From positions 45,942,001 to 46,006,000 of the forward strand of contig OZ260666.1 in the NCBI GenBank assembly GCA_965285935.1: 64,000 bases of DNA. The letters run 5' to 3'. The notes beneath the pieces are model-generated. The model saw nothing but the letters and a program-made list of their open reading frames with translations. It made no database searches and was not told the origin of the DNA. Source of the stretch: Ophelia neglecta. Taxonomy: Eukaryota. Positions 11,614 through 15,956 of this stretch are shown here, piece by piece. Numbering within the stretch: the first letter of the stretch is position 1; every line of letters starts with the position of its first letter. The translations under genes and the position numbers were made by a program.

Positions 11614-11858
11614 CTTTATCGCTGGATTGCTCTGTTAGTTATATCCATTGAGTTGAGCAATACAAAGGAGATCCTCCAACTTGTAATCAAGTGTGAACTA
11701 ACTTCCCGACATGTCATGTAGATGGCTTGTGAATACAAACCAGCGGGCACTGAGGGGTGAGACTGGTCCACTAGTGAATGTAGTGCATGTGGGTTAGGAG
11801 TCTGGAGACTGCCACACACCAACAGGCCACGGCTCTCCATACAAGTATCCGTCTGATT
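11614..11858 (-). other. 5'UTR part of the ATG-containing Elk exon (acceptor at 11858, alternative acceptor at 11870)
   Basis: GC/CpG-richer block contiguous with the CDS. Minus-strand acceptors are TATGTTCAG|A (11858) and ATTTCCTAAG|A (11870). The polypyrimidine tract is only moderate. Confidence 0.55.
11616..11840 (-). other. 74-codon upstream ORF ending 2 nt before the Elk start codon (TAA-AG-ATG)
   Basis: ORF track 11616..11840(-). Minus-strand junction CGA TAA AG ATG CCG. No recognisable homology, and translation is unproven. Confidence 0.45.
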
Positions 11859-12282
11859 CTGAACATAGTTCTTAGGAAATCACAACACCTTGTCTCTGCC
11901 TTTCATTTATCGGCAAGTCTCACCAAAATAAGTAACATGATAAAAAATCCTCACAATGTTGTGTAATTTTTAGCCTGTTATCTGGATTCAGTTTGGTTAA
12001 TAATGGTTCTATTTCTCCATCTAGGACAAGAGGATTGCCCTGAATCCTTCAGGCAGTATTAGTGCCCAGAACATCAGAATACACTAACAGAACACTAGCT
12101 TCTGAGTGTAGAGAATAATTGTTTCCTATCCATCCATACCTCCTGAACAGTTGAAACTGGGCTGAGGTGAAGGATAAAGACTTCTCTCTTCTCATCATAT
12201 AGGTTTTATATAATCACAAAGCTGTTTTGATGACTCCGGGGTAGATTCAATGTTACAAGATGATACATGGTTGCCCCCTCAC

Positions 12283-12380
12283 CACCTCTGCAATGATCCT
12301 AGTATTTTATCGTTTATTGAGCTGACACCGGTGACCATTTCTTCGGTGAAAAGCCTGCTGAATGCATATTTCTCTGCAAT
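12283..12380 (-). other. Predicted internal 5' leader exon of Elk (98 nt)
   Basis: Acceptor TGTTCTTTCAG|ATT and donor GTG|GTGAGG. CpG-retaining block. Only phase 0 is open (IAEKYAFSRLFTEEMVTGVSSINDKILGSLQR+TG). Confidence 0.55.
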
Positions 12381-14859
12381 CTGAAAGAACATTTGAAAGA
12401 AGCTATAATTCTTGTACAGTCATATTCCAAAGAGGCTTATTTTTAGTGAGTCGTCAATAAATTAGCATTATAGCATGACTAAATGAATACAATAATGTGC
12501 TGCATTGCCCATAAAACCCTGGTAAATTAATACTTTAGTCTACTGATCAACCACTTTCAACAGAAGTTTACGCTATGAAATAAACCATCATCTTTGTTGG
12601 AAACAATATACTTCATGAAATATGCAATCATCTTGATTGGATGTTAATGTCAAATGTCCTATCAATACTAAGATCGCAACACATAAACAAAAACAATGTA
12701 TCCTAGAGCCAGCTGGACTGGGGACACAGGAATGTGATGTAATTTATTCATATTATGAAATCATACACATTCATTAACACAAACAAAAATTCAAGTTTTT
12801 ACTGTTAGAGTGGGAAATTGTGGGATAAAAAGATCCCTTCTCTTATTGATTTTGTATATTTGCTCTATTTTTTAATGAAATTCATTATCACTTTTGCTGA
12901 CAGTTACATGATAGATGTATGCAGGCACTTAAATAACATTCCTGACACCAACCATTTAGCTTGATGACAGGCAGGATGAACAAGGAATAAAAACTAAACA
13001 TGAGCAATTAAAGGTATGTTTACGGACTTTTCTGAAATAAATGATGCATAAGGTTTTAAATTGATCTTAGTATTTATACGAGCTGGTCCTGTAAGCTGGA
13101 CAAACCCTTCATTGTTTTATTTTTTCTTTCTGTAATTCTATTTTACATTGTAGTTGCCAACTTGACTAATTAGCACTTACTATACAATGAAATTATATGC
13201 TGCCAAATATCATTGATATTGTACTGTTTTCAGAAGTATACAATTGCTTTAAAGCACCTCACTTGTTTCAGGCAACGAAAGTGCCTGGACCAGCACTTTT
13301 TCATGCAATGCACTTGCCCCAAAGGAGTGCTTTCTTTACTCAAGATGAAGATGGATGATTTAAACCCTACGCTGTCATTTTGGTTTGTACAAAGTCTAGT
13401 TACATTAGAGCATTTTAATTTGTGTGAGGCAGGTAACGGGGCACCTTTCTTTGGTACGAAGCACATTTTTCCAGCTGTTCTGTGCATACAAAAATGCTTC
13501 AAACCGTTTGTATCGCTCACCTTAGGCAAGTCACCCCTGGCTTCTTGCTAAAACTGGTGTGGTGAGCCATTGATAGCTTGGCTTGCAGTCATATTTTCCT
13601 CTACTGTAACAATTTGAAAGTTAGAGATATTCAACTGATTAATATCATGGTCAAAATATGCATTAATTACTATGCACATTTTAATCTCTTGTTTAGTTCT
13701 TCCAAGGCAGGAAGGAGCCATCCTAATCACGCTAATGAAACAAATATATATATGTACCCGGTATATATATACATTTTCTTGTGTAACTCTGACACCTATG
13801 GCATTCTGGGAACTAGCAGTACAGTATTCCCCTTGGTATACTTACTGGTTTAAACAAATGCTGAGAGGCAAACATGAACAATTCTTTAAATATACCTAAT
13901 ATACATGATAAGCAAATATGTGCAAGCTTAAAAATGCAATATATCTATACTATATTTGTCCATCCGGAAATAGCATTTTCCTCAGGCTAACAATCTCAAA
14001 ATATCCCTTGCCTTCTGCCTATCCAGTTATATATATGGTTTCCTGAGCAAGACAATACTTGTATGCTGTCCTGAGGTCACCATCATTAATAGTTTATCAA
14101 CAGAGGGGCCCATTGTCACATATATGAATAACCAATCAGTGCACATGAGCAACTAGACTGTACATTTCTGGTTTGATAGAAAGGCTTTTTTCTTATAATA
14201 CTACAGGAAATTTCAAGAATTAAAAGGATTGGCATGATTCTTTATTGCCATATGGCAACATACATGTACATGTGTTGATCTGTCACAAACTGTAACTAGA
14301 CACTACTAAGGCATATGTCATAAACCATATTAATCTCATTTAATTAAAAACTAAATTTTTGCATGTTACAAGTTCGGTCAACCATTTGGTTGCAATAGCA
14401 ATCATTTTCTTATTGAAATTTCTTTTTTGGTTTCAAGAGTCACAGCTAACACATTACATACATGTAAACAAAAATTCATGTTACATCCCTGAATAACCCA
14501 TTTACAACCTATTTTTAGAAGCAATATAACTTCCATAAAAATAGAAAACAACTTGTTAAGAACTTCTTTTCTGCTCATTTCTATAAAATAAGGTTATAAT
14601 CCAACTATTCCTGATTGCATTCTCTTCACTATACTACCATTGTACAGCTTGAATGGACAAGGCACTACCGGGATAAACCTGTAAAAGGTAGCACTTCTGA
14701 TATGTGCCATTGGCCACGACAGTTGGAGAGAATCATTCGTTTTCATACATCCTCATCTAAGTGTTTATTTCCGAGAGTGCTGGGTGGGAAATGGTGGGCA
14801 GAATGAATACTTTTGCTTCCTTCACCAGCCAAACATGTAATGGTACTCACAGAACTTAC

Positions 14860-15079
14860 CTCGGGCTTGCTTCTGGCACGTACTGCATCCAACCACCTTA
14901 TGAAAGACGGGCTAAAAGTCATAAGCTCATCAAATGTTTGATGGCTTTCTGAATCCGGTTGATTCAAATGTGGCCAAGGCATAATGCATTGGTACATTTA
15001 TATACCATACACAATCATATCAGTGCACTCGTGAATGTTTTCCATTTTGTATCAGCCCGAACAAGGATTTGCTAAAATC
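14860..15079 (-). other. Predicted internal 5' leader exon of Elk (220 nt), with an alternative donor 9 nt further on
   Basis: Acceptor ATAGTTTCAG|G, consensus donor GAG|GTAAGT at 14859 and a second donor TCT|GTGAGT at 14850. Several CpGs are retained. Confidence 0.55.
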
Positions 15080-15642
15080 CTGAAACTATATGTACACGTG
15101 CAGGTGAATTGTACATATTAAGGTAGGCTTTTCCCACTTGGCATACTGAAATAATACAAGCTGTAAATGAGCTTGTTAATTTATCATACACTGTACATCA
15201 AGCTGGATGTGTGCATGTGAATAGCTGTATTCGTTAACACTGATCAATCAAGCTTTTTCCTGAGGTGTCATTTAACAAATAGAACATAGTTCGATCAATG
15301 ACCTCTGTAGTTTGCACTGTTCATACTCACTTGCTTTACAGGCTGCTAAATCATAAATATTCGGGCAAAACAACAATTTAGCCATTTGTGATATTTCTTG
15401 GGGATTTCATATAAACTAAACGTATTCTAGTTTCTATATCTCTGGGTATTTATATTATTATGAAATGTTCAGCAAATGGTTGGGGTTTTCCAACATCAGT
15501 CTTACTGTAAATCACACACATAACACTGCCGGCAGGCACAGAATGTAGAAACCAACTGATCTAGTGTTTATCAGCGGGCATTCTGCATAATGGAATATAA
15601 TATTGAGATAAGACAAATCTTAGGGTAACATGAGCAACTTAC

Positions 15643-15956
15643 CAATGAGTTGAGGCTGGTCCTATCATATGTGTGAGTTACAATACAGAGTGCATAGATA
15701 CTTGCTGACTAGCGCCTGTCTCCACCAGAAGTGGCGATGCTCAATGCTCACACTGCCTTACTACAATGTACAAGCAGCGACACCACCAACAGCAGACCTC
15801 CAGGAAGCATTAGTGCAGTGGCCACTGAGGATTCTGAGTGCCTGTCCCTGAGGGGATACTGCAGGAGAAGGACGTGAAGCAAACTAGATGGTGAGCAAAC
15901 CACTAAGCCCTTAATGATAGACCTAGAGAGGTGTGCAACAGATTGCCGTCTAAACT
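15643..15956 (-). other. Predicted first (non-coding) exon of Elk
   Basis: Donor TTG|GTAAGT at 15642. GC-richer block bounded at its 5' end by an Inr-like TCAGTT and promoter motifs. Another good donor (CAA|GTGAGT) at 15330 may be an alternative. Confidence 0.5.

What the first reader, a model, noticed from the sequence alone, without database searches (positions are those of the whole stretch)
11614..15668. Relay of nearly abutting uORFs across the spliced 5' leader of the Elk K+ channel
Seen: joining the predicted leader exons gives ~880 nt with about 19 upstream ATGs. One path tiles the leader almost without gaps. uORF-1 (ATG 15668; MIGPASTHWILANPCSG*) crosses the exon1/2 junction. After 6 nt comes uORF-2 (15045-14998; MENIHECTDMIVYGI*). 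A back-to-back TAA|ATG starts uORF-3 (ATG 14997; 78 aa), which runs through the only open frame of the 98-nt exon and stops at a TG|A codon made by the splice junction. After 17 nt comes uORF-4 (11840-11616; 74 aa), then TAA-AG-ATG of Elk. Known: long, uATG-rich leaders repress translation, and stop-start adjacency is used in termination-reinitiation. Inference: Elk may be under strong translational control, or be the last cistron of a micropeptide-bearing polycistronic mRNA. Caveat: ATGs are common in AT-rich DNA and the exon chain is only predicted.
Basis: partly seen in the sequence, partly recalled or inferred. Interest (0 to 1): 0.7.

Follow-up and report, generated by a model that had tools for sequence, protein, structure and literature searches.

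The report
uORF-rich spliced leader of Elk channel
A potassium-channel gene (Elk/KCNH8 type) of a worm-like invertebrate is preceded by what are likely three non-coding leader exons holding about as many upstream start codons as chance gives, which would damp its translation in an ordinary way; the apparent end-to-start 'relay' of short reading frames is likely a coincidence.

Summary
The four uORFs are at the stated coordinates on the proposed exon chain, and ATG 11613 is the conserved Elk/KCNH8 start. The three upstream exons look real: their donors rank 1-3 of 293 GT sites and two acceptors rank 1 and 3 of 303 AG sites. The last acceptor (11859), on which the relay depends, ranks only 58. 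The uATG count is at chance level (19 against 20.7 in dinucleotide shuffles). The relay is rare for the fixed chain (p about 0.001-0.003). It rises to 0.018 once alternative chains are allowed, and to 0.10-0.22 with gaps of 30-40 nt. It survives intact with only 2 of 9 candidate acceptors. No homologue was found for the pieces of uORF-2/3 and uORF-4 that were searched. uORF-3 has no coding signal beyond composition (p 0.40); uORF-4 is marginal (p 0.04). Tight stop-start after 74-78 codons disfavours ordinary reinitiation, and no TURBS-like core is present. Best reading: an ordinary spliced, uORF-laden leader that likely damps Elk translation by limiting leaky scanning. Junctions and translation are untested.

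The parts
11538..11613 (-). First coding exon of Elk (KCNH8-like K+ channel), 25 codons + 1 nt; ATG 11613 with A at -3
   Evidence: 25 of 25 residues identical to tick Elk P0039; 96% to Capitella P0016; rest of the gene lies about 35-58 kb downstream, outside the window
11614..11858 (-). Predicted last leader exon (proximal leader); its acceptor is uncertain
   Evidence: Acceptor 11859 scores 2.5, rank 58 of 303; 11853, 11802, 12047, 12143, 12162 score higher. GC rises to 0.49-0.51 at 11900-11700. 4 of its 5 uATGs have a pyrimidine at -3
11616..11840 (-). uORF-4, 74 aa, stop 2 nt before the Elk ATG; its frame is open from the exon start (80 codons)
   Evidence: coding score above open-frame shuffles at p 0.037; no homologue; 3-nt in-frame insertion at 11795 in 2 of 3 runs
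12283..12380 (-). Predicted 98-nt leader exon; skipping it would fuse uORF-3 to the uORF-4 frame (126 aa)
   Evidence: acceptor rank 1 of 303, donor rank 2 of 293; chain alternatives
14860..15079 (-). Predicted 220-nt leader exon holding the uORF-1 stop, uORF-2 and the first 46 codons of uORF-3
   Evidence: donor rank 1 of 293, acceptor rank 3 of 303; three SNPs in run X3: 2 amino-acid changing, 1 silent in the uORF-3 frame
14998..15045 (-). uORF-2, 15 aa; one of only two uATGs in strong context (-3 purine, +4 G)
11858..14997 (-). uORF-3, 78 aa, spliced over 14860/12380, stop formed at 12283/11858
   Evidence: coding score no better than open-frame shuffles, p 0.40; no homologue for its exon pieces
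15052..15668 (-). uORF-1, 17 aa, spliced over 15643/15079
15678..15695 (-). Extra 5-aa uORF, in frame with uORF-1 to -3
15643..16106 (-). Predicted upstream leader exon; possibly an internal 464-nt exon rather than the first exon, so the 5' end is unknown
   Evidence: donor rank 3 of 293; acceptor 16107 rank 2 of 303; GC 0.46; SNP 15948 in run X1 adds a uATG (count 23 to 24 with the listed SNPs applied; which SNP does it was read from the sequence)

Best explanation
The Elk potassium-channel start codon at 11613 is preceded by what are likely three spliced non-coding leader exons whose upstream ATGs occur at chance density and would lower Elk translation by intercepting scanning ribosomes, while the end-to-start relay is likely a chance arrangement. 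Shown: the ORFs, the Elk start, the splice-site ranks, the chance-level uATG count and the mostly weak start contexts in the last exon. Inferred: that the exons are spliced to Elk; that most ribosomes on the long isoform start at an upstream ATG (uORF-2 and the ATG at 12338 have strong context) and are lost, with Elk made by leaky scanning past the weak ATGs of the last exon plus some reinitiation after the short uORFs; and that shorter leaders (proximal start, exon skipping, another acceptor) give most Elk protein. uORF stops upstream of exon junctions could also make the long form an NMD target (inference from established rules).
For: Splice sites: donors rank 1-3 of 293, acceptors 1 and 3 of 303, with a matrix trained on 11 Elk coding introns. 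Three such exons in 3.8 kb against 5 in the other ~84 kb of sense non-coding DNA, and no 4.7-kb window with two on the opposite strand (0 of 519). uATG count at chance. Relay not robust. No homologue of the uORF pieces searched. uORF-3 coding p 0.40; 2 amino-acid-changing SNPs to 1 silent, and a polymorphic uATG gain. Elk ATG has -3 A, while 4 of 5 proximal uATGs are weak. A toy leaky-scanning model with my assumed probabilities passes 39-61% from the last exon alone but 0.03-1% from the full leader. Elk upstream regions of other animals are as ATG-rich: mean 4.1 per 245 nt in 49 distinct loci vs 5 here; 6-13 per 520 nt in 23 loci, with a stop followed within 5 nt by ATG in 10 of 23, mostly at unshared positions. 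Precedent: a uORF represses KCNQ2 (PMC13506078, abstract).
Against: The relay is below 0.3% for the fixed chain and 1.8% after chain choice at 20-nt gaps; two uORFs of 74 aa or more occur in 1.5% of shuffles. Both long uORFs score above 73 of 74 and 74 of 74 non-coding open stretches, and uORF-4 beats open-frame shuffles at p 0.037. The one indel seen in the leader exons keeps frame. uORF-1 to -3 share one frame. Lack of uATG depletion is also what intronic DNA would show. The splice matrix rests on 11 sites and the score thresholds were set after seeing the scores. No close relative was available, so conservation is untested rather than absent.
Confidence: 0.55

Rival explanations
1. The chain is not spliced as proposed: Elk mRNA starts in or just before the proximal exon, or the 98-nt exon joins a stronger acceptor (12143, 12162, 12047, 11802), or the upstream exons belong to a separate non-coding transcript. 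The relay then does not exist as an RNA.
For: Acceptor 11859 scores 2.5, below 10 of 11 true Elk acceptors in leave-one-out. The stronger acceptors cut the relay to 104-227 nt. A 120-140-nt intron is plausible because Elk has a 126-nt coding intron. The full leader would pass 1% or less of scanning ribosomes.
Against: GC steps up near 11900, fitting an exon start at 11860-11850. The neighbouring acceptor 11853 (4.3) keeps the relay at 610 nt. The three strong exons are clustered right before Elk.
Confidence: 0.27
2. uORF-4, or the 126-aa ORF formed when the 98-nt exon is skipped, is a real small protein gene co-transcribed with Elk in a bicistronic message.
For: The last exon is open in phase 0 for 80 codons and joins uORF-3's first 46 codons in frame. 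Coding score p 0.03-0.04. In-frame 3-nt indel.
Against: No hit among 5.8 billion clustered proteins of matching length, 1.84 billion representatives (46-aa piece only), Pfam or the Atlas. The 46-codon part has no coding signal (p 0.50). Open stretches flanking other genes reach the uORF-4 score in 12 of 22 (5') and 13 of 58 (3') cases, though some of those may be coding. Weak start context. Five sequences were tested, so p 0.04 is unremarkable.
Confidence: 0.1
3. Ribosomes pass from uORF to uORF and finally to Elk by coupled termination-reinitiation, so that Elk output depends on the relay.
For: Gaps of 6, 0, 17 and 2 nt fall within the 20-nt range of TURBS-type reinitiation (PMC10275272 section 13). 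Low P for the fixed chain.
Against: No TGGGA (motif recalled, not from a call) in the spliced leader; only GGGA at -94 and -769. The proximal exon folds no better than shuffles (z +0.84). No Rfam family in the exons. Reinitiation falls with uORF length, and viral TURBS gives 3-20% per step, so several steps would yield very little. 1 of 49 other Elk loci has a uORF of 50 aa or more ending within 20 nt of the ATG.
Confidence: 0.05
4. The in-frame series (5-aa ORF, uORF-1, -2, -3) is one ancestral coding frame broken by nonsense changes, that is, decayed coding exons now serving as leader.
For: Three successive gaps of 9, 6 and 0 nt are all multiples of three, and the frame is kept over two junctions.
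Against: Read-through with X at the stops finds no relative. The region is single-copy in the genome at DNA level. No coding signal. About 1 in 27 by chance before any selection of the path (hand arithmetic).
Confidence: 0.03

Closest known systems
uORF-repressed 5' leaders of neuronal K+ channel mRNAs (KCNQ2 uORF, PMC13506078; abstract and opening paragraphs seen)
   Same: Voltage-gated K+ channel gene with ATG-initiated uORFs ahead of the main start; repression by capture of scanning ribosomes is the expected effect.
   Different: KCNQ2 has one uORF with ribosome-profiling and reporter support (abstract and section headings); here 18-23 uATGs at chance density on a predicted four-exon leader, with nothing tested.
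GCN4/ATF4-type reinitiation after short uORFs (scenario 1 in PMC10275272)
   Same: Several uORFs in series, two of them short (15 and 17 aa).
   Different: Those systems use short uORFs and long spacers (GCN4 up to 199-350 nt); here the two proximal uORFs are 74-78 codons with spacers of 17 and 2 nt, which disfavours this route.
TURBS-dependent termination-reinitiation (caliciviruses, influenza B BM2; scenario 2 in PMC10275272)
   Same: Stop and next start within 20 nt after a long ORF; uORF-4 and Elk are out of frame.
   Different: No TURBS core found, no unusual structure, uORF-2 to -3 in frame, and a cellular spliced mRNA.
Elk/KCNH8 (Kv12) subfamily of EAG channels
   Same: N-terminal exon, PAS exons, transmembrane, pore and C-terminal exons all match Elk proteins.
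   Different: Nothing unusual seen in the coding part; no N-terminal extension in frame.

Membership tests
Elk/KCNH8 channel gene | EAG-family N-terminal cap starting at this ATG, followed by a PAS domain | tested here: met
Elk/KCNH8 channel gene | Best matches are Elk rather than Eag/Erg, with intact downstream transmembrane and C-terminal exons | tested here: met
   Named hits among the 120 listed for exon 2 are KCNH8/KCNH3/KCNH4/eag-like; exons map in order to Capitella, Tubulanus and Lineus Elk. No tree was built.
uORF-repressed 5' leader | uATGs lie in the spliced mRNA upstream of the main ATG | tested here: inconclusive
   5 of 6 splice sites rank in the top 3, the last acceptor ranks 58; prediction only
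uORF-repressed 5' leader | uORFs are translated and their removal raises main-ORF output | not testable with these tools
   needs Ribo-seq and reporters
uORF-repressed 5' leader | uATG positions conserved in relatives | tested here: inconclusive
   Only distant animals were found; nothing aligns (best blastn E 0.23, best tblastn E 0.28 over 79 upstream regions; no nhmmer hit)
TURBS-type termination-reinitiation | Stop and start within about 20 nt | tested here: met
   gaps 6, 0, 17, 2 nt, conditional on the predicted chain
TURBS-type termination-reinitiation | 18S-complementary core in a structured element upstream of the stop | tested here: not met
   no TGGGA (recalled motif) in the leader; folding z +0.84; complementarity to this species' own 18S rRNA not tested
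GCN4/ATF4-type reinitiation | Short uORFs with long spacers before the next used start | tested here: not met
   78 and 74 codons, spacers 17 and 2 nt versus PMC10275272
Polycistronic smORF/micropeptide mRNA | Peptides conserved or under purifying selection | tested here: inconclusive
   no homologues found; 2 non-silent to 1 silent SNP in uORF-3; no close relative available
Polycistronic smORF/micropeptide mRNA | Coding-type periodicity beyond base composition | tested here: inconclusive
   uORF-3 p 0.40, uORF-4 p 0.037; 4 of 7 true Elk exon pieces reach p below 0.01 in the same test

The most novel reading that the evidence does not exclude
A cellular animal mRNA in which a 74-aa small protein, or a 126-aa form made by skipping a 98-nt cassette exon, ends 2 nt before the Elk start and hands ribosomes on by TURBS-independent termination-reinitiation, so that leader splicing switches both a micropeptide and the dose of a neuronal K+ channel.
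Probability: 0.07. Interest if true: 0.75.

Novelty: new member of a known kind. Interest (0 to 1): 0.24.

Why it matters
If the best reading holds, this is one more ion-channel gene with a long, uORF-laden, alternatively usable leader: useful for annotation and consistent with low-dose control of channels, but ordinary. If the novel case held, it would be a rare cellular example of coupled termination-reinitiation after a long ORF with a splicing switch, in which the distance rules for eukaryotic mRNAs (called unknown in PMC10275272 section 13) could be tested. The side observation of position-conserved uATGs in Elk leaders of another animal clade suggests uORF control of Elk may be worth a comparative look.

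Tried and rejected
Sequencing runs: no RNA holder listed. The three runs gave contigs that run through the introns with no joints, so they served only for variants. SNP density in leader exons against introns: 4 in 1027 nt vs 22 in 3466 nt, p 0.26, uninformative. N-terminal extension of Elk: no uATG in frame or overlapping the Elk ATG in any of 27 chains; three database Elk proteins with short extensions show no resemblance by eye. Repeat or paralogue origin: exon regions single-copy by DNA search (the tool warns that this does not prove rarity). Rfam: one chance-level hit in an intron (E 0.48). CpG-island promoter: none stands out upstream in the window. The first coding test looked positive but was mostly base composition once shuffles were matched. 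Earlier scan findings: none by place, words or sequence. Literature: listings for uORF + KCNH, uORF + potassium channel + leaky scanning, Elk/KCNH8/untranslated/upstream AUG and uORF + annelid + ribosome profiling showed no title on uORFs in an Elk leader; only titles and abstract starts were seen, and the library lacks most subscription papers. The spliced uORF-3 and the 126-aa form were not searched as whole proteins in the large databases, only exon by exon, so a weak whole-length match is not excluded.
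Full report
1. What is there. On the minus strand, ATG 11613 opens a 25-codon exon that matches EAG-family N-termini in PDB and is identical to an Elk protein (25 of 25). 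PAS exons lie about 35 kb downstream, outside the window, and the other coding exons follow in order. Named hits for exon 2 are KCNH8/Elk-type. Of four full-length or long named relatives used as queries, Capitella teleta matched best over the transmembrane and C-terminal exons, so the host is likely an annelid-like lophotrochozoan (inference; no tree). Among the 120 proteins fetched, 71 have the same start offset as this exon, and no upstream ATG extends Elk in frame in any of 27 exon chains.

2. Observation check. All four uORFs, their lengths and the gaps of 6, 0, 17 and 2 nt are as stated on the proposed chain. A fifth, 5-aa ORF at 15695 precedes uORF-1, and it and uORF-1 to -3 share one frame. 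Leader length and uATG number depend on the unknown 5' end: 18 in 641 nt, 19 in 821 nt, 23 in 1027 nt.

3. Are the exons real? With matrices trained on 11 donors and 11 acceptors of Elk's own coding introns, the proposed donors rank 1, 2 and 3 of 293 GT sites in 11614-16300, and acceptors 12381 and 15080 rank 1 and 3 of 303 AG sites. At thresholds set from these scores, 8 acceptor-donor pairs lie on the sense strand between the top of the window and coding exon 2 (about 88 kb), 3 of them in this 3.8 kb; on the opposite strand no 4.7-kb window of 519 holds two. This favours real leader exons, with the caveats of a small training set and post hoc thresholds. Acceptor 16107 ranks 2, so the first exon may be internal. 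The last acceptor, 11859, scores 2.5 (rank 58), below 10 of 11 true acceptors in leave-one-out, while 12143, 12162, 12047, 11802 and 11853 score higher. The junctions remain predictions.

4. Is it more than chance? The uATG count is not: 19 against 20.7 +/- 3.2 in 2000 dinucleotide shuffles and 20.0 in 2000 random window segments; against mononucleotide shuffles the mean is 13.7, P 0.09. A stop directly followed by ATG occurs in 58% of shuffles. The relay is rarer: P 0.0005 with the exact observed gaps, 0.003 with gaps up to 20 nt, 0.13 with gaps up to 50 nt. Shuffling exon by exon and taking the best of 36 chains gives 0.018, 0.10 and 0.22 for gaps of 20, 30 and 40 nt (fixed chain 0.0013, 0.025, 0.072; 1500 shuffles each). 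In the real sequence the full relay holds with 2 of 9 acceptors, while the junction-made stop appears with 6 of 9. The statistic was drawn around the observation and the scan reads very many windows, so a value near 0.02 is weak, though not nil.

5. Do the uORFs code? No relative was found for the 46-aa exon part of uORF-3 among 1.84 billion representatives (0 at E up to 0.001), for the 80-codon frame of the last exon or the read-through 220-nt exon among clustered proteins of matching length, in Pfam (0 of 3 pieces near a cut-off) or in the Atlas. These searches were exon by exon. A 3-periodic model trained on 20 long ORFs of this genome first placed uORF-3 and -4 above 73 and 74 of 74 non-coding open stretches and at the 9th-13th percentile of 148 coding pieces. 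Against dinucleotide shuffles kept open in frame, uORF-3 is ordinary (p 0.40) and uORF-4 marginal (p 0.037); 4 of 7 true Elk pieces reach p below 0.01 and 3 do not, so power is limited. Variants in three runs of one study: three SNPs in uORF-3 (2 amino-acid changing, 1 silent), one SNP adding a uATG in the upstream exon, and a 3-nt in-frame insertion in uORF-4. Skipping the 98-nt exon would fuse uORF-3 to the uORF-4 frame into 126 aa ending 2 nt before Elk; this is the most interesting residual.

6. Comparison with other animals. A metagenome scan gave 80 kept loci of 116 with the Elk first exon. None of 79 upstream regions aligns to this leader (best E 0.23 DNA, 0.28 protein), so the relatives are too distant to test conservation. 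They do give a baseline: 49 distinct loci carry a mean of 4.1 ATGs in the proximal 245 nt (18 of 49 have 5 or more; 5 here), and 1 of 49 has a uORF of 50 aa or more closing within 20 nt of the start (unspliced genomic DNA). In 23 hand-picked mutually related loci, in two paralogue groups, there are 6-13 ATGs per 520 nt and a stop followed within 5 nt by ATG in 10 of 23, mostly at unshared positions. Some uATG positions are shared (11 and 10 of 13; 9 of 11 twice). ATG ranks 3 of 64 triplets for retention in one group but 14 of 63 in the other, and profiles of both groups find nothing in this window's leader.

7. Mechanism. [quoted passage not shown] Here the proximal uORFs are long and tightly spaced, no TGGGA core (motif recalled) occurs, the last exon folds no better than shuffles and Rfam has nothing in the exons. 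Of 23 uATGs, 9 have a purine at -3 (background 46%) and 2 are strong; 4 of the 5 in the last exon are weak, and Elk's own ATG has -3 A. With initiation probabilities that I assumed, pure leaky scanning delivers 0.03-1% from the full leader and 39-61% from the last exon alone. The most likely working is therefore plain repression of the long isoform, with Elk protein coming mainly from shorter leaders, leaky scanning and reinitiation after the short uORFs. All of this is inferred. A uORF that represses KCNQ2 is a published precedent (PMC13506078; abstract and opening paragraphs seen).

8. Verdict. Observation partly confirmed; interpretation partly supported. Likely a real, ordinary uORF-rich spliced leader (0.55), or a chain that is not spliced this way (0.27). 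A coding small ORF (0.10), a functional relay (0.05) or a decayed gene (0.03) are not excluded because no close relative and no transcript could be examined. New member of a known kind; interest 0.24.

Noticed in passing
L055, L058, L064-L066, L070, L072, L075, L083, L091, L096, L097, L099 and L085, L090, L101, L107, L109-L112, L117, L119, L120; 520 nt upstream of the Elk ATG: Two Elk paralogue groups from mutually related animals have alignable upstream blocks with position-shared uATGs (11 and 10 of 13; 9 of 11 twice). In the second group a shared ATG about 330-400 nt upstream opens a uORF with a similar acidic start but lengths from 13 to 101 aa. L058 and L072 show a stop, 2 nt, ATG junction between two uORFs.
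   Followed up: partly
window 12283-12380 and 11616-14997: Skipping the 98-nt exon would fuse uORF-3 to the uORF-4 frame, giving a 126-aa ORF that ends 2 nt before the Elk ATG.
   Followed up: partly
   Followed up: no
window 1-11537 and beyond (to G000:C9:45918232): The first coding intron of Elk is about 35.3 kb; the remaining exons lie within about 23 kb.
   Followed up: yes
G000:C9 near 45903086 (Elk coding intron): One Elk intron appears to use a GC donor.
   Followed up: no
L055, L058, L064-L072 and related loci, donor after Elk exon 1: One paralogue group has GTTAGT or GTCAGT at the first coding donor instead of GTAAGT/GTGAGT.
   Followed up: no
window 38936-39917, 38208-38513, 48970-49395: Tandem arrays: 21-nt unit x 47 (gives spurious long ORFs), 22-nt x 14, 53-nt x 8.
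   Followed up: no
window 6501-7000: The only CpG-rich 500-nt bin of the window (16 CpG, o/e 0.73 against median 0.22), inside Elk intron 1; possibly a repeat insertion or internal promoter.
   Followed up: no
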